From a bacterium (GTDB taxonomy: Bacteria > Zhuqueibacterota > Zhuqueibacteria > Residuimicrobiales > Krinioviventaceae), in the NCBI GenBank assembly GCA_963675755.2, contig CAXXMD010000002.1, positions 544,001-608,000 of the forward strand: a stretch of 64,000 bases of DNA, in the 5' to 3' direction. The translations under genes were made by a program, and so were the position numbers. Every line of letters starts with the position of its first letter. The stretch's first letter is position 1. Of the stretch, positions 3,793-56,810 are shown piece after piece. The notes beneath the pieces were generated by a model. It had not been told where the DNA came from and did not search any database. It was given only the letters and a program-made list of their open reading frames with translations.

Positions 3793-4436
3793 AAATAGCC
3801 CCGTCAGTTCTTAGTGCAGATTTTGCATATATGTCAGACCAGATACAGGATGCAGAAAAGGGTGGAGCCGATTGGATACATCTGGATATTATGGATGGCC
3901 ACTTTGTGCCCAATATAACCTTTGGTCCATTTATCATTAAAAGTTTAAGAAAACTTACCAATTTGACTTTTGATGCACATCTGATGATAGAAAATGCAGA
4001 TTTATATCTTGAAGATTTTAAAAATGCTGGTGTTGATCAGCTTACAGTCCATTATGAGGCATGCCCGCATTTGTGGAGCACAATCGATAAAATCCATTCA
4101 CTTGGTTTAAAAGCAGGAGTTACTCTGAATCCTGCAACCCCAGTTTCGCTTATTGAACCCGTTTTACATAAAGTAGAGTTGGTACTGGTTATGACAGTAG
4201 AACCAGGTTTTGGTGGACAAAAGTTTATACCTGAAATGTTGGAAAAAATTCAACATTTATATCAATTCAAAGTAATGAACGGTTTAGACTATCATATACA
4301 GGTAGACGGCGGAATTGATAAGGAAACCGCACCTCTTGTTGTAAATGCCGGTGCAGACGTTTTGGTTGCAGGAAGTGCTATTTTCAACAATAAAGATATA
4401 AAAGCTGCCATAGATAACTTAAAAGCCGTTTTGTAG
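3786..4436 (+). CDS. rpe: Ribulose-phosphate 3-epimerase
   Basis: IAPSVLSADF, HLDIMDGHFVPNITFG, MTVEPGFGGQKF, VDGGI motifs. Confidence 0.97.
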   Translation: MVKIAPSVLSADFAYMSDQIQDAEKGGADWIHLDIMDGHFVPNITFGPFIIKSLRKLTNLTFDAHLMIENADLYLEDFKNAGVDQLTVHYEACPHLWSTIDKIHSLGLKAGVTLNPATPVSLIEPVLHKVELVLVMTVEPGFGGQKFIPEMLEKIQHLYQFKVMNGLDYHIQVDGGIDKETAPLVVNAGADVLVAGSAIFNNKDIKAAIDNLKAVL

Positions 4437-4475
4437 ATATAAATAGAAATTTTTTTCGAATAAATTAAATTTCTC

Positions 4476-4504
4476 TTGACACTCTCCCTTTTGGTTTATA
4501 TATT
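4476..4504 (+). promoter_or_regulatory. Sigma70-type promoter of the cold-shock protein gene
   Basis: TTGACA (4476-4481), 17 bp spacer, TATATT (4499-4504). Confidence 0.7.
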
Positions 4505-4562
4505 ATTATGTCAATATAATTTTTATTTTTATTAAAATTTTTGCCAAAAGCAGGAGGGAAAA

Positions 4563-4763
4563 ATGCCAATAGGCAAAGTTAAATGGTTCAATGACAGTAA
4601 GGGTTTTGGCTTTATAGAGCAAGAAAATGGTGATGATGTTTTTGTTCATTATTCAGTGATAGATATGGATGGCTTTAAAACATTATCCGAAGGTCTTGAT
4701 GTAGAGTTTGATGTTCGGAATAGTGATAAAGGACTGCAGGCAACACGTGTTACTAAAGCTTAA
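4563..4763 (+). CDS. Cold-shock protein (CspA family)
   Basis: [15 protein letters not shown] (RNP1) and DVFVHYS (RNP2); GGAGGG RBS. Confidence 0.97.
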
Positions 4764-4784
4764 ATTACCCATAATTTATTGACG

Positions 4785-4817
4785 AGCCCCGCATTTTTTT
4801 ATGCGGGGTTTTTTTTT
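4785..4817 (+). terminator. Intrinsic terminator after csp
   Basis: AGCCCCGCAT / ATGCGGGGTT stem followed by a T run. Confidence 0.85.
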
Positions 4818-4874
4818 GTTAAAAAAATATTTATTTGGATTATTTAAAATTATTTTAATACATTGTACTATTAG

Positions 4875-5342
4875 ATGGATGAAAATACAAGGCTGGTAAT
4901 GAAACAGGTATTTACAAAAAAAGATATAGATAAAATTGCACACGTGCTGGATGTTGAACCCAAGCATAAGGGCAATAATTATCGGTTTGTTCTTGTTAAT
5001 CCCGATACGATGCAGCAATTGTCTTTTGAAATTTATCCTGATATTCCCATTGGAAACAAAACCGGAAATCTGGTCTGTGTTTATGCTCCATTTGCACATT
5101 TGCAGCTTCATTTTTGTACTGGTTATGTAGTAAGCGAAATGCTTGGTGAGGTAACTTTTATTGGCGAAAGTGGAGATAAATTGTCTGGTTTGATCATTGA
5201 AAAGGGTGCAGGTTGTTCAATGCATTCCAATGTTGATAAGGAGATCTTATCCGGAGATTTTACCACATTAGGGCCCGAAATCATGTTATCTGGTATTGCT
5301 CTGTCTTTAGCTGAAGATATTTTGCCTGATACTAAAGAATAG
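4875..5342 (+). CDS. Hypothetical protein, first gene of the xerD-birA-coaX run
   Basis: 155-aa ORF with globular-like composition, ending 6 bp before xerD; no family recognised. Confidence 0.75.
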   Translation: MDENTRLVMKQVFTKKDIDKIAHVLDVEPKHKGNNYRFVLVNPDTMQQLSFEIYPDIPIGNKTGNLVCVYAPFAHLQLHFCTGYVVSEMLGEVTFIGESGDKLSGLIIEKGAGCSMHSNVDKEILSGDFTTLGPEIMLSGIALSLAEDILPDTKE

Positions 5343-5348
5343 TTGTAG

Positions 5349-6257
5349 ATGGATTTACATGATCACCTCAAGGGGTTTATTGATTATTTAAGAATTGAAC
5401 GCCAGGTTTCTTTAAATACCGTTGAAGCTTATGAACGTGATTTAAAAAGATATATTGACCATCTTTTTCATCTTGAATTGTTACCTCAGGAACCCATAAC
5501 ACCAGACCATATAGAATCCTATTTGGAAATGCTGCACGAGATGCATCTTGCATCTACATCCATATCCAGAAATTTATCTGCTGTCAGATCATTTCACCAG
5601 TTTTTGCTTGGTGAAGGGATCTTTACTAAAGACCCAACCGAAAATATGAACATTCCCAAACCCTGGATGAAATTACCCGAGGTTTTGGATGTTCAAGACA
5701 TAGAGGTTTTACTGGAACAGCCAGATGTTTCAACGGGTAAAGGTATTCGTGATCGGGCAATTATAGAGTACATGTATGCTACAGGTGTGCGTGTAACGGA
5801 ATTGGTCAACTTGAAAATGCAGGATATTTTATGGGATGATGAATTTGTCCGTGTGTTGGGTAAAGGAAACAAAGTAAGGTATATCCCGGTAAGTCAATCT
5901 GCTCTGAAATGGATTCAACAATACTATAAAACACATCGCGTTAGACTTGCTTCGTTTGGTTTATCTGGTGATCGTGTGTTTCTCAATAAATCCGGTAAAA
6001 AATTGAGCAGACAATCCATTTGGAAAATGTTAAAAGCTTATGCCTTGCAAGGAGGCATTGAAAAGTTTATCAGTCCTCATTCATTACGTCATTCATTTGC
6101 AACACATCTATTGGAAGGTGGTGCAGATTTAAGAGCTGTACAGGAAATGTTGGGGCATGCCAGTATTACAACAACGCAAATATATACACATCTTGACAGA
6201 GAGATGTTAAAGGAAGTCATTAATACGTTTCATCCTATACAGAACAAAAATCTTTGA
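5349..6257 (+). CDS. xerD: Site-specific tyrosine recombinase XerD
   Basis: TGVRVTE, GKGNK and HSLRHSFATHLLEGGADLRAVQEMLGHASITTTQIYTH catalytic motifs. Confidence 0.9.
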   Translation: MDLHDHLKGFIDYLRIERQVSLNTVEAYERDLKRYIDHLFHLELLPQEPITPDHIESYLEMLHEMHLASTSISRNLSAVRSFHQFLLGEGIFTKDPTENMNIPKPWMKLPEVLDVQDIEVLLEQPDVSTGKGIRDRAIIEYMYATGVRVTELVNLKMQDILWDDEFVRVLGKGNKVRYIPVSQSALKWIQQYYKTHRVRLASFGLSGDRVFLNKSGKKLSRQSIWKMLKAYALQGGIEKFISPHSLRHSFATHLLEGGADLRAVQEMLGHASITTTQIYTHLDREMLKEVINTFHPIQNKNL

Positions 6258-7006
6258 ATCTCATGCAACAAAATTATATTGGAAATAATGTAATACTTTT
6301 AAATACTGTGGATTCCACCAATGCTTATCTGCGGCGAAATTCTGATTTACCCTGTGGTACTGTGGTTTCAACTGAATACCAGACAAAGGGTAAAGGCAGA
6401 GGGGGCAAAATATGGATTTCGGAACGTAACAATGGGTTGCTTTTTTCTTTTAAATTTAATCCTAATATCCTGGCCAAAGATTCAGTATACCTGATGTATT
6501 TAACATCTGTTGTTTTGTCAAAATATTTAAATGAAAAATATAATATTTCGACAGGTATAAAGTGGCCCAATGATATCTATATTGAAAATAAAAAGTTAGC
6601 CGGTATATTATTAGAAGCAAAATCCGGAAGAAAAAGTATTAAATATGTGGTTATAGGTATTGGTGTAAATATATCTGAAAATCAGGATAAAAAACATCTG
6701 CCTGATAATTATTGTTTTCTTGATAATTATATTACACAAACGTTTGATAAATTGGAATTTCTATTTGGCTTTATTGACTATTTCAATATTTATTATTATT
6801 CTGTGATTAAGAATGAAAATTTTTTCAAAGTTGTTTCTGATTGGAATAAACACTGCATTCATATCGATAAGGTGATAGAGATCACTACACATTCTCAAAA
6901 AAACAAGTATATATTTAAACGGTTGGATGAATCGGGTGCCATTCTGGTAGAGTCTGATAATGGTCAAAAACTGTTGACAAACGTAGAGGAAATTATATGC
7001 TGTTAG
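6254..7006 (+). CDS. birA: Biotin--[acetyl-CoA carboxylase] ligase (no HTH domain)
   Basis: VDSTN, QTKGKGRGG, IKWPND, KKLAGILLE motifs. Confidence 0.92.
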   Translation: MNLMQQNYIGNNVILLNTVDSTNAYLRRNSDLPCGTVVSTEYQTKGKGRGGKIWISERNNGLLFSFKFNPNILAKDSVYLMYLTSVVLSKYLNEKYNISTGIKWPNDIYIENKKLAGILLEAKSGRKSIKYVVIGIGVNISENQDKKHLPDNYCFLDNYITQTFDKLEFLFGFIDYFNIYYYSVIKNENFFKVVSDWNKHCIHIDKVIEITTHSQKNKYIFKRLDESGAILVESDNGQKLLTNVEEIICC

Positions 7007-7761: not shown

Positions 7762-7857
7762 CGCTTTTTTTATATAGAAAATATTTTATATTATTAATTG
7801 TATCAAATCTGGGGTAGATTTGGTCCTATTTACTATTGTGATGATAGGGATGATGAA

Positions 7858-47890: not shown

Positions 47891-50110
47891 ATGCGCTCAT
47901 TAACAAGATTTGTTCTGATTGCCCTTTGTTTTTCTACTATTTCTTCTGCACAAATTAATCCTGTTCAACTTGAACCGGCACTAGTTTTCAACTCTGATCG
48001 TTCTACAACTTTTACAAGAACGATTTACTCTTTGGGATCTCGGTTCTCATCTACAGATTCTATTTTTGCTTTACAAAAAATCCAAAAATTTAATATAACC
48101 AAGGTTGATTCTGTTAATAACCACGAGTTACAAATTGATTTTATTATTGAACCTGGATTTACAGAATTTGGCAAGCATAAATTTCTAGTTTTAGATTCTT
48201 TACAGCAGAAGAAATTAGATTTTACTTTGGATATAAGGTATGCAAATCCTCCATTTGTAGAATCAATTATAATACGCCAGAATAAAAAAGTAATGAATGA
48301 CACAATTCGCTTGTCAGATACGGATTATACTCTGGCTACTCTCACCATTAGAGGAACAGGTTTGTTCGACAATACCATTGTAGAGTTTGACGATCCTGCA
48401 ATTCAGGTTTTAAATACACCGGGGTGGAGAAGAAGTATTGCTCCAAATCTTTTGCAAGTGGGCCTTGAAATTAAATCCGGTAATATTAACGTTGGTTATA
48501 AACAATTTCGAATTAAAAATGATTTTGCCATGGAAGGATTTGGCAAGATTTTTATTAAAAGCAATAGAGCTCCTGTAATATACGGTACGGTCCCTGATAT
48601 TATCGCTGATGGTCAGGATCATCGTATACAAATCCGTGGTGATTATTTTCAATCAGGATTAACGGTATCATTGCTGCCTCAAGATGGTATTGCAAGAGTA
48701 CAAAATCGTTCAGCAAGTGATGTTGAATTGTTGATTAACATTCCTGTTTTAGAAAATTCAAAAAGTTATAAACTTGTTATCCAGAATCCTGATGGATTAT
48801 CTGATACTACAGGATATTTTACTGCAAAAACACCTCCGTTAAATAAAGCTTATGCCCGTTCATTAAATAATCAACCTGTATTTCTAGATAAAGAAACACG
48901 AATTGTATTTACGGTTCAAACCTATGCCAACAAACGATTAAACAAGCAAACCGCATATGAGATCAATATTGATGGTGTAAAATTTCCGGTTAATTCAGTA
49001 ATCAATGACAGTACTTGTGAAGCTGTTATAAAATTATCTCAAAAATCGCCATACACATTATTGAATCAACATGTTTTTACAATTAGTCCCGTAGACGCGG
49101 CACCCAAATGGAAAGGCCTGTTATTCAGCAAACCCGCACCAGATCTTACTTATATGTCTCCCGAAAATGTACTGCATCCCCAGGATACACTAAGTTTTGT
49201 GTTCAAAGGACAAAATTTAGATGATATAATCATGTATATTACCGATCCTGAAATCACTTTTAAAATTCAGGAAAATAGAGGGGATTTGATTCGAGTAACT
49301 GCTATAGCCGGACGTCATTTAAAAAATGGTACGTATCCTGTAAAAATTCGAAAAAATGATGTAACTTTTGAGTTCCCTGAGCATCAAATAATTATACAGC
49401 AGTGGCAGCCATTTACTGAATACGCCTCAATACATACTACCAGTTTGAAAAGTTTGCCATCTGATTCTTTGTGGAAAGAAAAACAGAGGGCCCGGATCAT
49501 TGAAAAAACAGACAAGTTACGAATGGATTTCTATTTGCAAAACTTGTCAAAAGAAGCTGGTACACAAAAAGTTTTTATTAATGCGGTTCTGATCGATTCT
49601 TCTAATGCTGTTCGAGCTGAGACGCGCTTTTTTAAAGCGTTGAGTTATGAAAATAAAACTTTTTCCTGGAATTGGCGTTTACATGAAAAAATTAAATCTG
49701 GTGATCGTATAGAGATTTCTATCAGCAATACTGGTGGTCAAAACAAAAAGACTGAGGTGTTTTTTGTAAAGCCACACTGGTCAGAATCTTTCAAGGGATC
49801 AACCTCATTTATAATTTTCAAAGCTCCAATGAATGGTGGTAATGCTACTGCGGAAATCTTAAGAACGGTTGCAATTGGTCTTTCGTATCAGCCATTTGAA
49901 AATAAAGACTTTTTGGAGTTTGATTCATCGATTTTAATAGGAAACGCAACATCGAGCGATAGTGATCTTGATGTGGATTTGGGTCTGGGTTTGAGTGTTA
50001 TTCTCTGGAACCATATTCAACTGGGATTTGGTTCAAACTTGACAAACGGACCCTTTTCAGAAATGTTTGCTTTTATGGGTACACGCATAAAAATACCTGT
50101 TCCCTGGTAA
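47891..50110 (+). CDS. Large exported beta-rich protein (Ig/IPT-like domains, possible C-terminal beta-barrel)
   Basis: Sec signal ending SSA-Q; LTIRGTGL, IQIRGDYF and FVFKGQNL repeats; alternating hydrophobic strands ending in W. Confidence 0.7.
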   Translation: MRSLTRFVLIALCFSTISSAQINPVQLEPALVFNSDRSTTFTRTIYSLGSRFSSTDSIFALQKIQKFNITKVDSVNNHELQIDFIIEPGFTEFGKHKFLVLDSLQQKKLDFTLDIRYANPPFVESIIIRQNKKVMNDTIRLSDTDYTLATLTIRGTGLFDNTIVEFDDPAIQVLNTPGWRRSIAPNLLQVGLEIKSGNINVGYKQFRIKNDFAMEGFGKIFIKSNRAPVIYGTVPDIIADGQDHRIQIRGDYFQSGLTVSLLPQDGIARVQNRSASDVELLINIPVLENSKSYKLVIQNPDGLSDTTGYFTAKTPPLNKAYARSLNNQPVFLDKETRIVFTVQTYANKRLNKQTAYEINIDGVKFPVNSVINDSTCEAVIKLSQKSPYTLLNQHVFTISPVDAAPKWKGLLFSKPAPDLTYMSPENVLHPQDTLSFVFKGQNLDDIIMYITDPEITFKIQENRGDLIRVTAIAGRHLKNGTYPVKIRKNDVTFEFPEHQIIIQQWQPFTEYASIHTTSLKSLPSDSLWKEKQRARIIEKTDKLRMDFYLQNLSKEAGTQKVFINAVLIDSSNAVRAETRFFKALSYENKTFSWNWRLHEKIKSGDRIEISISNTGGQNKKTEVFFVKPHWSESFKGSTSFIIFKAPMNGGNATAEILRTVAIGLSYQPFENKDFLEFDSSILIGNATSSDSDLDVDLGLGLSVILWNHIQLGFGSNLTNGPFSEMFAFMGTRIKIPVPW

Positions 50111-50371: not shown

Positions 50372-51316
50372 CTATATATTTAGCAGTATTGTTATTAATG
50401 ATATGATTAATAACAATACTAAAATTGCAAATCCTCTTCCCCTGAATAATCTATTAATAATTCTATTCCTGGTATTGTTAACTGCTTTTCGCAATGGCAG
50501 CCAGAAATTTCTGTCCATAAATAGAAAAAAGGATTTTATTAATTCCTGCCCTGTATAAATCCATTGTTGTAAAAAATATTGTTGAGTATCCTGACTTTTT
50601 TGGTATTGCTGTTTAATCTCTGCTGGCATTACTTTTTGCTCTTCAACTTGCAAATTTAGCTCCAACTGATCCGGATCTAATCTGTAATAGGGGATATACA
50701 TTTTTTTTGTTGCTTTGCCCTTTTCATAGACAGAACCCGGTTTTATCCCTTTGTGGAATTTACCTTTTGCGTAAATTAATGAAATAATATCATTTAAATA
50801 AGCCGTCATGGTGGGATTGTGTTTATCAATCATTTCATTAATGAAATGTTGTTGTTGATTAAGTTGATCGATTAAAACATTTTTCTCTTTACTAAATGTA
50901 TCAAATATCCTAACAAGTTTGTTAATTGCTTTAAATAATTGATCATCAAAATCTGTAAATGAACCATCTTGTAAAAGAAAGGGGATTGATTTGAGTTCAA
51001 TATTAAAATTATAGTTTGTTGATTTATTATCATTGGTATCAAATACTTTTGAATTAATTATAAAAGATAATTTTAAACCAATATGCTCTTCAAAAGTATT
51101 AATATTTAAGCTTGTGTTTAAAAATCGTATGCTTTTATTTGCCAAATCACTATTGGTAGAATTAATATGCTGTTGAATTTTTGATGAAAGCATATAATCC
51201 TGCTTGAAATCTATTTTTATATTTTTATTGGGAAAATCATCCAGTGGTTTTTTATGTTTTCCAATGGATTTTAATTGTTCGTATTGCTCAATTTTGAATC
51301 GATTCACCTTGCTCAT
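50372..51316 (-). CDS. Hypothetical protein with a C-terminal membrane anchor
   Basis: Long ORF; likely start MSKVNRF after ACAGGA; ends GFAILVLLLIISLITILLNI. Confidence 0.65.
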   Translation of the reverse strand: MSKVNRFKIEQYEQLKSIGKHKKPLDDFPNKNIKIDFKQDYMLSSKIQQHINSTNSDLANKSIRFLNTSLNINTFEEHIGLKLSFIINSKVFDTNDNKSTNYNFNIELKSIPFLLQDGSFTDFDDQLFKAINKLVRIFDTFSKEKNVLIDQLNQQQHFINEMIDKHNPTMTAYLNDIISLIYAKGKFHKGIKPGSVYEKGKATKKMYIPYYRLDPDQLELNLQVEEQKVMPAEIKQQYQKSQDTQQYFLQQWIYTGQELIKSFFLFMDRNFWLPLRKAVNNTRNRIINRLFRGRGFAILVLLLIISLITILLNI

Positions 51317-51454
51317 AGATTTTCCTGTTAAAAAATTATAAAAAGAAGTAAAATATAGATCATTTATCATTGCAAATTTCATCCCAAATACGTATAATTC
51401 TAAATAAAAAAACATGTATTTTCAATTCCAATCAAGTTAGATTTGGGTGATGAA

Positions 51455-52624
51455 ATGGCGGATAATGAATTCAAGATTGTAGAATTTTCCAATCAAACCA
51501 AAAATGATAGACAATTATTGAAACAGTTTGTTGATTTTCATTGGTCACATTATGAAAATGATCCTCAATATGTACCTTTATTGGATTATGAATATTTGGG
51601 TTTTCGTTTAATTGGCATGACAGGTTTTTTTGAACCCCGCAATTTATTTTTTAAACATGCGGAAATGCGTTTTTTCCTGGCTCAACGAAACGGAGAAACT
51701 GTTGGCCGATGTAACGCTTTTGTGAATCATAGCTATAATGAACATTGGAATGAAAAGACAGGATTTTGGGGACAATTTGAATCAATTGATGATCTTGATG
51801 TTGCACGTGCATTAACAGATGCTGCTGCAAACTGGCTCGCAAAGCAGGGAATGGATACGATGCGAGGACCTCAAAATCTACCCATTAATGAAGCTACTCC
51901 TGGTTTGTTAACTGAGGGCTTTGACACCAGACCTGTGATTTATTATCAATATAATAAACCTTATTATCAAAGTTTAATAGAGCAGCTTGACTTTAAACCC
52001 GCAAAGAAATTTTTATCATGGGAAGCACCAGTAAATCAGGGTGAAAAACCAAAGCTTGAACGCGTTACTGAAAAGATAATGAAACGTTTTGATATTAAAG
52101 TTGAAACCTGGGATCAACGTCCGTTTAAAACCCGTCGTCAAGAGATGTTTGAAATTTATAATGACGCATGGAGTGATAATTATAATTTTGTACCTTTTAC
52201 GCAGGAAGAGTTTTTTTCCATAGTTAGTGATATGATGCTGGTAATGGATAAAAAATTATTTTTATTTATTTATGTAAATGATGAACCCGCAGCATTTTTT
52301 GGTGGCGTGCCTAATATTAATGAAGTTATAAAACCCATTCGCGAAATTAAAAGATGGGAATTGATACGTGCTATCAAGATGTTATTAACCAAACAAAGTG
52401 TTAAAGGATTTAGATTAGGGTATTTGGGAGTAAAAAAGAAATTCAGAAGAATGGGGCTCGATGGTTTGATGTTGTGGAAACAACACGCATATTCCAAACA
52501 AGCTGGCTATGAATATTCTGATTTAGGTTGGGTTTTGGAGGATAATGTAATGGTACATCGATTGATCGATTTAATTATTGCAAAACCTTCAAAAGTTTAT
52601 ACGATTTATGAAAAGCAAATTTGA
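51455..52624 (+). CDS. Tandem-GNAT fold protein (YghO-like)
   Basis: FFLA...VGRC.A, GFWGQFES.DD, MRGP, YNKPYY, LGVKKKFRRMGL, GWVLEDN. Confidence 0.8.
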   Translation: MADNEFKIVEFSNQTKNDRQLLKQFVDFHWSHYENDPQYVPLLDYEYLGFRLIGMTGFFEPRNLFFKHAEMRFFLAQRNGETVGRCNAFVNHSYNEHWNEKTGFWGQFESIDDLDVARALTDAAANWLAKQGMDTMRGPQNLPINEATPGLLTEGFDTRPVIYYQYNKPYYQSLIEQLDFKPAKKFLSWEAPVNQGEKPKLERVTEKIMKRFDIKVETWDQRPFKTRRQEMFEIYNDAWSDNYNFVPFTQEEFFSIVSDMMLVMDKKLFLFIYVNDEPAAFFGGVPNINEVIKPIREIKRWELIRAIKMLLTKQSVKGFRLGYLGVKKKFRRMGLDGLMLWKQHAYSKQAGYEYSDLGWVLEDNVMVHRLIDLIIAKPSKVYTIYEKQI

Positions 52625-53604: not shown

Positions 53605-53637
53605 ATAAAAGGCGTTGATATCATCAACGCCTTTTAT
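53605..53637 (+). terminator. Intrinsic terminator upstream of the topoisomerase IB gene
   Basis: ATAAAAGGCGTTGAT-atc-ATCAACGCCTTTTAT perfect 15-bp inverted repeat. Confidence 0.82.
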
Positions 53638-53729
53638 AATTTAAAAAAAATGTTGCATAATTCATAAAAAATGATTTATTCATTCATGTTTTCACTACAT
53701 GAATTTATTCGAAAGGAAATAAGCAGGTT

Positions 53730-55478
53730 TTGTTAACTAAACTTATCCATAATGGAATTATCGTTCCGGATCCCCCAAAATATCATGGTGTAACCTTAAA
53801 AGTCAAAGATCAACAAATTAAACTTTCCCCAAAACAGGAAGAAATGGCCTATGCCTGGGCAAAAAAACAAGGTACACCTTATGTAGAAGATCTTGTATTT
53901 GTTAAGAATTTTCTCAAGGATTTTAGCCTTGCCCTTGGTTTTAAAAAAGCCCTTAAACTTGATGAAATAGATTTCACTCCCGTTTATAAGATTGTTGATA
54001 AAGAACGTGCCGCTCGTGAAGCCATGAGCAAGGAAGATAAAAAACTCCTTGCAGCGAAACGCAAAGAGATTCGTGAAGAGTTGAAAGAGAAATATGGTTT
54101 TGCTTCAACTGGCGATGAGAGAATAGAACTTGCGAATTATTTAACAGAACCCAGTGGTATTTTTATGGGTAGGGGTAAACATCCATTACGTGGACGTTGG
54201 AAAGAAGGTGCCTCCCAAAAAGATGTTACCTTGAATCTTAGCCCCGATGCACCTGTGCCTCCCGGAGATTGGAAGGAAATTGTTTGGCAACCTGACTCTT
54301 TATGGGTTGCAAGATGGGATGACAAGTTGTCAGGTAAATTAAAATATATCTGGCTGCACGATACTGCTCCTATCAAGCAGGCACGTGAAGCAAAGAAATT
54401 TGATAAAGCACTCGAATTAAATTCAAGAATTGAAAAAGTTAGAAAATCAATTGAAAAAGATTTGCAAAGTGAAGAGTTCAAAATCCGCAAAGTTGCTACC
54501 GCATGTTTTTTGATTGACGCGTTATGTCTTCGTGTTGGTGATGAAAAGGATCCTGAAGAAGCGGATACCGTTGGTGCAACCACATTACGTCCCGAACATA
54601 TAAAATTTCTCAAAGATGGCCGTGTAGAATTTAGATTCTTGGGAAAGGACTCTGTACTTTGGGATAAAAAGATAGAACTACCGGATTTTGTTAAAGATAA
54701 TTTAACAGAGTTGTCTGAAAAAGCAAGGCCCTCAACCAACAGCTTTGGTAAAGTAAAACATGAAGCTTATAATAAACCACAATTATTTCCTGACATTACC
54801 AGCCGTAATGTTAATGCGTATTTATCGCATCATATGAAAGGTTTAACTGCCAAGGTTTTTCGTACTCACCATGCTACCAATGTTGTAAAAACTTCATTAG
54901 AAAATTCCAATGTAGTTAAAACTGATCCTGAATATGTTAAATGGGAAGCAACTGTAAACGCAAACCTTGAAGCTGCAATTTTATGTAATCATACAAAGCA
55001 GCCACCCAAAAATTGGGCAGAGCGTAAAGTAAAATTTAGAGAACGCGAAAAAAGTGCCAAGGAAAGAATTGAAAATATAAAAACTTTGCTCAAAACGCTC
55101 AAGCAAGAAGTTAAAGATCTTAAAGTAGAATATAAAGAAAAGAAAGAGGCTGCACCTAATAAAGCCCAACGAAAAAAGATAAAAGAACGATACGATAAAA
55201 AAATTCAGGCTAAAAAGAGTAGACTGGAAGCTACCATTCAACGTGAAGAAAAAGCACAAATTGCATTAGGTAAATTACGTGCACAAAAAGCTATTGCTTC
55301 TCAAAACAGAACCTGGAACTTGGGTACAAGCCAAAAATCATATATTGATCCTAGAGTATTTCACGAATGGGGAAAATCAGTTAATTACGATGTTATAGAT
55401 AAATACTATTCAGCAACACTTAAACGCAAGTTTATGTGGGTCAAAGAGCAGGATAATGATGAAAATGAAACTGCTTGA
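53730..55478 (+). CDS. DNA topoisomerase IB, long archaeal/eukaryotic type
   Basis: LIHNGI.VP N-terminal domain, EPSGIFMGRGKHP, LRVGDEKD, FLGKDS, AKVFRT, AILCNH, coiled-coil linker, LGTSQKSYIDPR. Confidence 0.95.
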   Translation: MLTKLIHNGIIVPDPPKYHGVTLKVKDQQIKLSPKQEEMAYAWAKKQGTPYVEDLVFVKNFLKDFSLALGFKKALKLDEIDFTPVYKIVDKERAAREAMSKEDKKLLAAKRKEIREELKEKYGFASTGDERIELANYLTEPSGIFMGRGKHPLRGRWKEGASQKDVTLNLSPDAPVPPGDWKEIVWQPDSLWVARWDDKLSGKLKYIWLHDTAPIKQAREAKKFDKALELNSRIEKVRKSIEKDLQSEEFKIRKVATACFLIDALCLRVGDEKDPEEADTVGATTLRPEHIKFLKDGRVEFRFLGKDSVLWDKKIELPDFVKDNLTELSEKARPSTNSFGKVKHEAYNKPQLFPDITSRNVNAYLSHHMKGLTAKVFRTHHATNVVKTSLENSNVVKTDPEYVKWEATVNANLEAAILCNHTKQPPKNWAERKVKFREREKSAKERIENIKTLLKTLKQEVKDLKVEYKEKKEAAPNKAQRKKIKERYDKKIQAKKSRLEATIQREEKAQIALGKLRAQKAIASQNRTWNLGTSQKSYIDPRVFHEWGKSVNYDVIDKYYSATLKRKFMWVKEQDNDENETA

Positions 55479-56300: not shown

Positions 56301-56810
56301 ATGCAAAATTTAGAAATTAAAGCAAAATTCTCTGATCTTAAATATGCTGAACAAATAGCAATACAAATACATGCTGTCAAAAAGTGGACAAGAAAACAAA
56401 AAGATATTTATTTTATTACACCTAAAGATAAATTAAAGCTCAGAATAGTTGATGATGCTGTATGTGATTTGATTTATTATAACAGACCTGAAAATAAAAA
56501 AGCAGAAATTAGTAATTATAAAATATATAAAACACAAAAACCACAAGAGCTGCTTGAAATCCTGACTGATATTTTTTCAATTGATATTATTGTCGAAAAA
56601 ACAAGAACATTATATCTTTATGAAAATGTTCGTATCCATCTTGATTCTGTTAATCAACTTGGTTCTTTTATTGAATTTGAAGCTGTTTTAGATGATAAAA
56701 ATGATTTAAATGTTTCTGTTGATCATTTGGATTTTTTAAGTAAAAAATTTAACATTAGTGATAATCAATTAGTAGATACTGGTTATTTTGAATTATTAAA
56801 AAACAAATAA
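56301..56810 (+). CDS. CYTH-domain protein (class IV adenylate cyclase CyaB-like)
   Basis: NLEIKAK, QKDIYF, KLKLR, VEKTRTLY, RIHLD.V.QLGSFIEFE. Confidence 0.87.
   Translation: MQNLEIKAKFSDLKYAEQIAIQIHAVKKWTRKQKDIYFITPKDKLKLRIVDDAVCDLIYYNRPENKKAEISNYKIYKTQKPQELLEILTDIFSIDIIVEKTRTLYLYENVRIHLDSVNQLGSFIEFEAVLDDKNDLNVSVDHLDFLSKKFNISDNQLVDTGYFELLKNK

What the first reader, a model, noticed from the sequence alone, without database searches (positions are those of the whole stretch)
53730..55478. Full-length archaeal/eukaryotic-type topoisomerase IB in a bacterial chromosome
Seen in sequence: a 582-aa protein with the N-terminal LxHNG domain, the GRGxHP loop, the complete catalytic set (R268, K306, R378, H421, Y538 by my count) and a roughly 100-aa Lys/Glu-rich coiled-coil linker before the active Tyr. 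Established: characterised bacterial TopIB enzymes are short poxvirus-like proteins lacking these parts, whereas this architecture is that of eukaryotic Top1 and thaumarchaeal TopIB. From memory, motifs such as QEEMxYxWAKK, RVGDEKDPxEADTVGATTLR and ANLEAAIxCNH match the thaumarchaeal enzyme. The gene has a terminator upstream, ordinary bacterial neighbours, no obvious compositional shift and no mobility genes. Inference: an old archaea-to-bacteria transfer, or an overlooked bacterial clade of long TopIB.
Basis: partly seen in the sequence, partly recalled or inferred. Interest (0 to 1): 0.85.

Follow-up and report, generated by a model that had tools for sequence, protein, structure and literature searches.

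The report
Eukaryote-type topoisomerase IB in bacteria
A KSB1 bacterium carries an intact, conserved copy of the long DNA-untwisting enzyme known from eukaryotes and some archaea, inherited across a whole bacterial order and most likely acquired long ago from archaea.

Summary
ORF 53730-55478 (+) encodes a 582-aa protein with all three Pfam domains of long-form topoisomerase IB. The catalytic pentad R268/K306/R378/H421/Y538 is intact. A confident model (pLDDT 93.6) superposes on human Top1 (TM 0.80-0.86).

It is not a chimera. The gene lies about 598 kb into a contig of a 3-contig, 6.5 Mb genome. It is syntenic with a closed chromosome, matches its neighbours in GC3, and has dN/dS 0.04.

The host is a candidate-division KSB1 bacterium. 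The gene was found in 38 of 42 other genomes of its order and 4 of 4 of one further family, but in 0 of 120 genomes from the rest of the phylum. A sister set sits in genomes labelled Chloroflexota/Anaerolineae.

In a careful ML tree all bacterial copies form one clade (100/100). That clade is nested among archaeal sequences, next to a long-linker group and Bathyarchaeia. An AU test rejects archaeal monophyly (p 7e-5). The best reading is an old archaea-to-bacteria transfer followed by vertical descent.

The searchable literature still describes bacterial TopIB as short only, although databases already name these proteins "DNA topoisomerase I". The enzyme kind is known; its bacterial home is new.

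The parts
53730..55478 (+). Long-form (eukaryote/archaeal-type) topoisomerase IB gene, 582 aa, TTG start
53739..54356 (+). Topoisom_I_N (CAP / DNA-binding) domain, aa 4-209, including LIHNG and GRGKHP
   Evidence: E 1e-49
54369..55085 (+). Topoisom_I catalytic core, aa 214-452, with R268, K306, R378, H421
   Evidence: E 6.4e-60
55014..55304 (+). Lys/Glu-rich antiparallel two-helix linker, aa 429-525 (helices 429-474 and 478-525)
   Evidence: DSSP on the model, block pLDDT 91-98; composition; (His-to-Tyr spacing 117)
55269..55460 (+). C-terminal domain (Topo_C_assoc), aa 514-577, with the active-site Tyr538 (codon 55341-55343)
   Evidence: E 1.4e-13
53609..53644 (+). Terminator-like hairpin with U-rich tail, just after the upstream gene's stop (53598)
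   Evidence: -20.7 kcal/mol, z -8.4, 0 of 200 shuffles fold as well; not flagged by the consensus scan
53633..53661 (+). Weak sigma-70-like promoter candidate (TTTATA, 17-nt spacer, CATAAT; 9 of 12 matches) upstream of the gene
   Evidence: a consensus match only. 13 such sites were found in the region against 7.6 expected

Best explanation
The gene encodes a functional long-form type IB DNA topoisomerase, a swivelase. Shown here: it has the full CAP, catalytic core, coiled-coil linker and C-terminal tyrosine architecture, an intact catalytic pentad, and a predicted closed clamp like human Top1. Inferred from the family's established chemistry: the clamp encircles duplex DNA and Tyr538 attacks one strand to form a 3'-phosphotyrosyl intermediate. 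R268, K306, R378 and H421 stabilise the transition state. The free 5'-OH strand rotates under friction from the clamp and linker, and the nick is then resealed. This relaxes both positive and negative supercoils without ATP or Mg2+. Evolution: an ancestor of one KSB1 order most likely acquired the gene from an archaeon related to a long-linker group and Bathyarchaeia. The gene has since been inherited vertically under strong purifying selection and is fully adapted to the host's composition. Closely related copies in KSB1 family f6 and in Chloroflexota-labelled genomes point to a shared origin, with at least one further bacterium-to-bacterium transfer. Likely cellular role (inference): an extra relaxase for positive supercoils ahead of replication and transcription, in bacteria that have gyrase and two type IA enzymes but apparently no Topo IV.
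For: Architecture and active site: (the five catalytic residues are invariant in 48 of 48 aligned homologs). Fold: pLDDT 93.6 and pTM 0.86. Foldseek TM 0.80-0.86 to human Top1-DNA complexes, and best E-value 1e-46 to CsTOP1.

Genuine bacterial chromosomal gene: the genome is 6.48 Mb in 3 contigs and 98% complete, with the gene at C2:597.7 kb. LpxC is present in the genome. Eight-gene synteny holds with a closed 6.5 Mb chromosome (L017, 96% identity) and with a KSB1-labelled MAG (L014, 73% identity). GC3 matches the neighbours, and dN/dS against L017 is 0.042 (142 synonymous and 32 non-synonymous differences), compared with 0.016-0.018 for the neighbouring Crp and Prs genes.

Distribution in the phylum: 43 of 167 genomes including the window's own. 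By family: f1 17/18, f2 12/14, f3 1/1, f4 8/8, f5 0/1, f6 4/4, and 0/120 for the other 20 families. The four negatives within the order are 80-92% complete MAGs.

Phylogeny (careful IQ-TREE, 60 rows x 566 columns, support given as ultrafast bootstrap/SH-aLRT): the bacterial clade has 100/100. Bacteria plus the long-linker archaeal group have 100/99. That set plus Bathyarchaeia and allies has 100/100. Nitrososphaerota/Caldarchaeales are separate. The eukaryotic outgroup has 100/100, and 4 of its 8 rows carry eukaryotic names. AU test: holding the 28 non-bacterial prokaryotic rows together costs 72.4 lnL, p 7.2e-5. In the FastTree of 151 rows, the rows carrying genome search family codes fall into three separate clades by family: f1 (support 75), f4 (99) and f2 (99). 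This is as expected for vertical descent.

Other topoisomerases in the genome: two type IA matches, a single GyrA/ParC-family match, and no second TopIB.
Against: No biochemical or expression data exist. No RNA run holding the gene was listed.

The tree is unrooted. If the root lay on the bacterial branch, the bacteria would be sister to everything else. Only the narrow bacterial distribution argues against that.

The AU groups were defined after the tree was seen. The 'archaeal' set holds 16 unnamed representatives and L065, whose domain of origin I did not establish.

The immediate sister group is poorly characterised: one member is labelled Heimdallarchaeota by its depositor, one comes from an archaeal MAG of unknown phylum, and two are unnamed. 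Its own monophyly is weak (80/33). The donor lineage is therefore uncertain, and a transfer from bacteria into that group is not excluded.

KSB1 f6 groups with the Chloroflexota-labelled copies (98/93) rather than with the KSB1 order. KSB1 monophyly is borderline (p-AU 0.052), so the number and direction of transfers within bacteria are unresolved.

The Topo IV argument is not specific to this clade. A single GyrA-type match is the rule across the phylum: 39 of 43 TopIB-positive genomes and 100 of 124 TopIB-negative genomes have exactly one.
Confidence: 0.82

Rival explanations
1. The long TopIB is an ancient bacterial gene, present in an early bacterial ancestor or in LUCA. It survived only in a few bacterial lineages, and it is not derived from archaea.
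For: The tree is unrooted, so a root on the bacterial stem cannot be excluded by topology alone. The bacterial clade is strongly monophyletic (100/100) and spans two differently labelled phyla.
Against: The bacterial distribution is very narrow. It was found in 0 of 120 genomes in the other 20 families of the same phylum, in 10 of 41 genomes among G167 and its relatives, and in 0 of 14 control genomes. Branches within the bacterial clade are short compared with archaeal diversity. The clade sits at the tip of a nested series of archaeal groups, and holding the archaeal rows together is rejected (p 7e-5).
Confidence: 0.07
2. The long-linker form arose in bacteria after an earlier acquisition and was later passed from bacteria to the archaeal sister group (the G169 and Heimdall-labelled sequences). 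That group would then be a recipient, not the donor.
For: The sister group is small and weakly supported as a clade (80/33). It shares the long linker: His-to-Tyr spacing is 123-210, against 59-72 in most archaea. One member (L029) carries a frameshift.
Against: Even so, the combined clade remains nested among other archaeal sequences (Bathyarchaeia and allies, 100/100). An archaeal origin further back would still be needed.
Confidence: 0.1
3. The gene is an assembly or binning artefact: an archaeal fragment stitched into a bacterial contig.
For: None was found. The only prompt is that the protein's best solved-structure match is archaeal.
Against: The gene lies about 598 kb into a long contig of a 3-contig genome. 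The same gene sits in the same eight-gene context in a closed chromosome and in another MAG. Orthologs occur in 42 other genomes of the phylum. GC3 is identical to the neighbours and selection is purifying. The flanking genes are bacterial types (Crp, PRPP synthetase, DegT).
Confidence: 0.01
4. The gene came from a eukaryote, for example a protist host or prey, rather than from an archaeon.
For: The linker is of eukaryotic length or longer: His-to-Tyr spacing is 117, against 91 in human Top1 (human numbering from the passages seen). The model fits the human closed clamp.
Against: The bacterial clade lies deep inside the prokaryotic half of the tree, separated from the eukaryotic rows by a 100/100 branch about 2 substitutions per site long. 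Identity to eukaryote-like representatives is 29-37%, against 42-55% to archaeal copies. There is no charged N-terminal extension.
Confidence: 0.02

Closest known systems
Archaeal TOP1 / TopIB of Caldiarchaeum subterraneum (CsTOP1, PDB 6Z01/6Z03) and other Thaumarchaeota (Dahmane 2016, PMC4824112; Takahashi 2022, PMC8748870; passages read)
   Same: Same three-domain architecture with no charged N-terminal extension, and the same catalytic pentad. Identity is 42-47%. It gives the best sequence match (E 3.7e-139) and the best Foldseek E-value among solved structures.
   Different: The host is a bacterium. The linker is much longer: His-to-Tyr spacing is 117 residues, against 65-72 in 17 named Nitrososphaerota/Caldarchaeales loci. 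Dahmane et al. give a 53-aa linker for CsTOP1 and 76 aa for human. Phylogenetically it belongs to a different sub-clade, together with Bathyarchaeia and long-linker archaeal sequences.
Human/eukaryotic nuclear Top1 (e.g. PDB 1A36, 1K4T)
   Same: The predicted closed clamp superposes at TM 0.80-0.86 and rmsd 4.0-4.6 A over about 585 aligned columns. It has the same pentad, a two-helix coiled-coil linker and a C-terminal Tyr domain.
   Different: Identity is about 30%. It lacks the long charged N-terminal domain. The linker is about 26 residues longer than in human. Camptothecin sensitivity is unknown.
Short poxvirus-like bacterial TopIB (Deinococcus radiodurans, PDB 2F4Q/3M4A) and poxvirus TopIB (PDB 2H7F)
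   Same: The catalytic domain is homologous and the chemistry is the same.
   Different: These match only weakly and only over the catalytic core (E 3.8e-4 and 5.3e-4; TMq 0.25-0.31). The short forms are about 310-350 aa, have a different small N-terminal domain, and have no linker. The literature read here describes bacterial TopIB only as this short form.

Membership tests
Long-form type IB topoisomerase (eukaryotic/archaeal TOP1) | Topoisom_I_N (PF02919) CAP / DNA-binding domain | tested here: met
   E 1e-49, 169 bits against a cut-off of 25, covering profile positions 5-213 of 213
Long-form type IB topoisomerase (eukaryotic/archaeal TOP1) | Topoisom_I (PF01028) catalytic core | tested here: met
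   E 6.4e-60, profile positions 3-226 of 228
Long-form type IB topoisomerase (eukaryotic/archaeal TOP1) | C-terminal domain carrying the active-site tyrosine (PF14370) | tested here: met
   E 1.4e-13. Y538 lies in the SYIDPR motif, which aligns to the corresponding tyrosine motif of a human Top1 chain
Long-form type IB topoisomerase (eukaryotic/archaeal TOP1) | Catalytic pentad Arg-Lys-Arg-His-Tyr (human R488, K532, R590, H632, Y723) | tested here: met
   R268, K306, R378, H421 and Y538. They align with the human and CsTOP1 motifs and are invariant in 48 of 48 aligned homologs. Human numbering is taken from the passage seen
Long-form type IB topoisomerase (eukaryotic/archaeal TOP1) | Coiled-coil linker between the core and the C-terminal domain | tested here: met
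   helices 429-474 and 478-525 at high pLDDT. The linker is longer than in CsTOP1 and human Top1
Long-form type IB topoisomerase (eukaryotic/archaeal TOP1) | Bilobed clamp fold | tested here: met
   TM 0.80-0.86 to human Top1-DNA complexes. This is a predicted model, not an experimental structure
Long-form type IB topoisomerase (eukaryotic/archaeal TOP1) | ATP- and Mg2+-independent relaxation of positive and negative supercoils through a 3'-phosphotyrosyl intermediate | not testable with these tools
   Needs purified protein and a Y538F control
Short poxvirus-like bacterial TopIB | About 300-350 aa, with a small virus-type N-terminal domain instead of Topoisom_I_N, and no linker | tested here: not met
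   The protein is 582 aa with Topoisom_I_N and a linker. Short-form structures match only at E about 4e-4 over the core

The most novel reading that the evidence does not exclude
A distinct long-linker prokaryotic TOP1 lineage has moved between domains among anoxic-sediment organisms: Asgard-labelled and Bathyarchaeia-like archaea, KSB1 and Anaerolineae. In the KSB1 order it has become a fixed housekeeping enzyme that serves as the main relaxase of positive supercoils in bacteria lacking Topo IV. That would be a bacterial chromosome managed in part by a eukaryote-type swivelase, with a linker even longer than the human one that may tune rotation speed or processivity.
Probability: 0.25. Interest if true: 0.7.

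Novelty: new member of a known kind. Interest (0 to 1): 0.58.

Why it matters
Papers that I read in passages state that among prokaryotes the long form occurs only in archaea, and that bacterial and viral TopIB are short. This finding shows a large bacterial clade of full-length enzymes under purifying selection: more than 120 protein clusters at 90% identity. The gene is fixed in one KSB1 order and also present in Chloroflexota-labelled genomes.

This matters in three ways. It adds an inter-domain transfer of a eukaryote-signature DNA enzyme to the debate on where TopIB came from. It weakens topIB as a strict thaumarchaeal hallmark gene. It also offers natural variants with a uniform, extra-long linker for studying controlled rotation and camptothecin sensitivity.

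The enzyme mechanism itself is expected to be conventional.

Tried and rejected
NCBIfam gave no family for the protein.

Rfam and tRNA scans of the window found nothing.

Expression: no RNA holder was listed. Only 2 runs from one study hold the stretch, probably the source sample.

Topo IV hypothesis: I tested whether TopIB presence goes with loss of a second GyrA/ParC paralog. It does not. Across the phylum, 139 of 167 genomes have exactly one PF00521 match, whether or not they have TopIB. Only family f10 shows listed full-length second matches, in 2 genomes. The tool warns that matches are not copy numbers.

The consensus terminator scan did not flag the upstream hairpin. Direct folding did show it.

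In one search my TIM-barrel dN/dS comparison was mis-registered (dS 1.46, dN 1.51) and is discarded. The label 'GNAT' that I gave ORF 51443-52624 in scripts was a guess, and Pfam finds no family there.

crashed. The motif regex failed for 9 sequences and gave a wrong value for P0126 (408). One search, which is alignment-based, supersedes it for 17 sequences.

Kinship of G167-G171 is not reported by the tool. The Chloroflexota assignment therefore rests on the following: depositor labels (three locus titles and one protein name), absence from the 167-genome phylum list, sigma-70 present with TBP not found, and LpxC not found. I did not run a marker-gene phylogeny.

G211 (L065) has a divergent 794-aa TopIB. 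Its flanking genes do not tell bacterial from archaeal.

Rows dropped. In one search, 50 of 200 sequences were excluded as not full-length (L002, L027, L029, L045, L047 and 45 representatives). L029 was later re-added. The 80-row and 60-row sets were chosen by hand after the FastTree was seen. For the careful tree I removed 20 rows: the long-branch unknowns P0138, P0154, P0165, P0180, P0174 and P0146, 4 eukaryote-like rows, 8 redundant bacterial rows, and P0177 and P0150.

Literature. Searches found no report of long TopIB in bacteria. Subscription journals are not covered and supplements are closed. Supplementary trees of PMC4824112 (Fig. S1) and PMC8748870 (Suppl. Fig. 2) could contain such sequences, and I could not see them.

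The phylum scan included the unpublished genome G158, and the same genome set was searched. It contributes 1 of 167 genomes to the GyrA counts and to the TopIB-negative counts.
Full report
OBSERVATION

The window holds an ORF at exactly 53730-55478 (+). It has a TTG start and encodes 582 aa. Pfam finds the three domains that define the long form of type IB topoisomerase:
- Topoisom_I_N: aa 4-209, E 1e-49.
- Topoisom_I: aa 214-452, E 6.4e-60.
- Topo_C_assoc: aa 514-577, E 1.4e-13.

NCBIfam has no model for it.

Against solved structures, the best sequence match is the archaeal CsTOP1 (6z01, E 3.7e-139). Human Top1 chains follow at about 1e-69. The short bacterial (2f4q) and poxviral (2h7f) enzymes reach only about 4e-4, and only over the catalytic core.

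The five catalytic residues align with the active-site motifs of the human and archaeal enzymes. They are invariant in a 48-sequence alignment that goes down to 31% identity.

An AlphaFold2 model built on that alignment is confident (pLDDT 93.6, pTM 0.86). It shows two long helices, 429-474 and 478-525, that form the linker. Foldseek superposes the model on human Top1-DNA complexes at TM 0.80-0.86. CsTOP1 gives the best E-value but a low global TM (0.44). That is expected, because the CsTOP1 crystal is the open conformation, as described in passages of PMC8748870.

IS IT REALLY IN A BACTERIAL CHROMOSOME?

- The window is G000:C2:544001-608000, in a 6.48 Mb genome of 3 contigs that is 98% complete.
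- The upstream gene ends in a strong terminator-like hairpin (-20.7 kcal/mol, z -8.4).
- The neighbours are a xylose-isomerase-like TIM-barrel protein, a Crp-family regulator, a CYTH protein, PRPP synthetase, a HAD hydrolase and a DegT aminotransferase. There are no mobility genes.
- The same eight-gene arrangement surrounds the ortholog in a closed 6.5 Mb chromosome (L017, 96% aa identity) and in a MAG labelled candidate division KSB1 (L014, 73%). It is partly visible in L011.
- GC (0.366) and GC3 (0.257) match the neighbours. dN/dS against L017 is 0.042, compared with 0.016-0.018 for the neighbouring Crp and Prs genes.
- The genome has LpxC, two type IA topoisomerase matches, one GyrA/ParC-family match and no second TopIB.

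A chimera or contaminant is excluded for practical purposes.

DISTRIBUTION

Many close homologs carry the depositor's name 'DNA topoisomerase I [candidate division KSB1 bacterium]'.

Across all 167 genomes held for the window's phylum, PF02919 is found in 43, including the window's own:

| Group | Family | Positive/searched |
|---|---|---|
| Window's order | f1 | 17/18 |
| Window's order | f2 | 12/14 |
| Window's order | f3 | 1/1 |
| Window's order | f4 | 8/8 |
| Window's order | f5 | 0/1 |
| Same class | f6 | 4/4 |
| Rest of phylum | 20 other families | 0/120 |

The four negatives within the order are MAGs that are 80-92% complete. The control set of 14 well-known genomes has none.

The bacterial clade is large. 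The best 120 clusters (at 90% identity) in a 5.8-billion-protein search all have the three domains and at least 57% identity.

Three further loci (L023-L025) come from genomes that are not in the phylum list. These genomes are bacterial: they have 11-25 sigma-70 matches, and TBP was not found. LpxC was not found in them either. Their depositors label them Anaerolineae, Anaerolineales and Anaerolineaceae. A member of the related cluster P0122 is labelled Chloroflexota. Among G167 and 40 of its relatives, 10 of 41 carry the domain, which is a patchy pattern.

PHYLOGENY

From 200 collected sequences I kept 150 full-length ones plus the query. A FastTree of 151 rows x 547 columns puts 76 eukaryote-like representatives on one side and all prokaryotic sequences on the other. 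In it, rows carrying KSB1 family codes fall into three separate clades by family: f1 (support 75), f4 (99) and f2 (99).

A quick IQ-TREE run (80 rows x 567 columns, LG+C20 PMSF) and a careful run (60 x 566) agree. Support in the careful tree, as ultrafast bootstrap/SH-aLRT:

| Grouping | Support |
|---|---|
| All 24 bacterial rows | 100/100 |
| KSB1 order (12 rows) | 98/93 |
| f6 (3 rows) + Chloroflexota-labelled (9 rows) | 98/93 |
| Sister group: P0123, P0125, P0126, L029 | 80/33 |
| Bacteria + sister group | 100/99 |
| That set + Bathyarchaeia (L028, L032) and allies | 100/100 |

In the sister group, P0126 is labelled Heimdallarchaeota by its depositor. L029 comes from an archaeal MAG in which TBP was found and sigma-70 was not.

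Nitrososphaerota and Caldarchaeales form a separate part of the tree. Four of the 8 outgroup rows carry eukaryotic names (Schistocerca, Cyanoptyche, Dictyostelium, Rhizamoeba).

Two AU tests were run:
- Forcing the 28 non-bacterial prokaryotic rows into one clade costs 72.4 lnL and is rejected (p-AU 7.2e-5). Those 28 rows are 10 named archaeal loci, P0126, L065 and 16 unnamed representatives.
- Forcing the KSB1 order and f6 together costs 10.6 lnL (p-AU 0.052), which is undecided.

Caveats: both groups were defined after the tree was seen, the tree is unrooted, and many rows are unnamed.

LINKER

The residue count from the catalytic His to the Tyr, used as a proxy for linker length:

| Group | His-to-Tyr spacing |
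|---|---|
| KSB1-order sequences (24 of 24) | 115-117 |
| f6 (3 of 3) | 116 |
| Chloroflexota-labelled (12 of 12) | 111-117 |
| Archaeal sister group | 123, 167, 210 |
| P0127, P0128 | 154 |
| Bathyarchaeia loci L028, L032 | 59, 67 |
| Named Nitrososphaerota/Caldarchaeales loci (17) | 65-72 |
| Human Top1 (H632, Y723) | 91 |

Dahmane et al. give linkers of 53 aa for CsTOP1 and 76 aa for human (passages). Takahashi et al. note that some Asgard TOP1 enzymes have much longer linkers (passage). The uniform long linker is thus a shared mark of the bacterial clade and its nearest archaeal relatives.

MECHANISM

Shown here: the architecture, the active site, the fold, purifying selection and conservation across an order.

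Inferred from the family's established chemistry: the clamp encircles duplex DNA and Tyr538 forms a 3'-phosphotyrosyl bond. The cut strand swivels under friction from the clamp and the basic linker, and the nick is then resealed. Both positive and negative supercoils are relaxed without ATP or Mg2+.

Suggested role: relief of positive supercoils in a bacterium that has only one GyrA/ParC-type gene. This is not specific to the clade. Exactly one such match is found in 39 of 43 TopIB-positive genomes and in 100 of 124 TopIB-negative genomes of the phylum.

COMPARISON WITH WHAT IS KNOWN, AND NOVELTY

The protein meets every sequence and structure criterion of long-form TOP1 that I could test. It fails the criteria of the short poxvirus-like bacterial family.

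Papers read in abstract or passages say the long form is confined to eukaryotes and archaea, and they describe bacterial and viral TopIB as short (PMC4824112, PMC8748870, PMC8185306). Eight full-text searches found no report of a long bacterial TopIB. Subscription papers and supplementary trees could not be checked. Public databases already name these proteins 'DNA topoisomerase I', so the sequences are not new.

What appears unreported is the recognition of a fixed, vertically inherited bacterial clade of eukaryote-type TopIB with an archaeal origin. I rate it a new member of a known kind, of moderate-to-good interest to people who work on topoisomerases or early evolution.

VERDICT

The main refinement is that the nearest archaeal relatives are a long-linker group and Bathyarchaeia, not Thaumarchaeota.

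Noticed in passing
L065 (G211:C19:88000-98000), ORF 3918-6302 +: A relative of the Chloroflexota-labelled genome G167 carries a divergent 794-aa TopIB with large insertions. Its Topoisom_I_N score is 233 bits, much higher than for the KSB1 type. It groups with the unnamed representative P0137, away from the bacterial clade. This may be a second, independent acquisition or a mis-binned contig. The flanking genes (SMC-like ATPase, M32 peptidase, HD phosphohydrolase, methyltransferase, GH10) do not tell which domain the contig comes from.
   Followed up: partly
L029 6001-8000 (archaeal MAG G169): In the closest named archaeal relative, the C-terminal tyrosine domain is in a different reading frame from the rest of the gene. 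The frame changes near position 7806 of the locus. This is a frameshift or an assembly error in that MAG.
   Followed up: partly
representatives P0127, P0133, P0135, P0136, P0137, P0143, P0151, P0155, P0185: Several prokaryote-side TopIB representatives are 700-940 aa long and match the query in 3 separate stretches, so they carry large internal insertions. These could be inteins or extra domains; I did not examine them.
   Followed up: no
whole phylum: Almost all 167 genomes of the window's phylum show a single GyrA/ParC-family match, which suggests gyrase without Topo IV across the phylum. Only family f10 shows listed full-length second matches, in 2 genomes.
   Followed up: partly
window 56301-56810 +: The CYTH-domain gene next to the Crp-family regulator has a strikingly low GC (0.237) and GC3 (0.106) compared with its neighbours (GC3 about 0.25). 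It is also the least conserved gene of the syntenic block: 83% identity to L017, against 91-98% for the other genes downstream of TopIB.
   Followed up: no
window 47891-50110 +, 50372-51415 -, 51443-52624 +: Three sizeable ORFs upstream (739, 347 and 393 aa) have no Pfam family. All three are conserved in the closest relative L017 at 85-94% identity.
   Followed up: no
L020 / G018: NCBI organism labels are unreliable for this group. A genome that GTDB kinship places in the window's own family is titled 'uncultured Cytophagia bacterium', and other close relatives are titled Calditrichaeota or simply 'bacterium'.
   Followed up: partly
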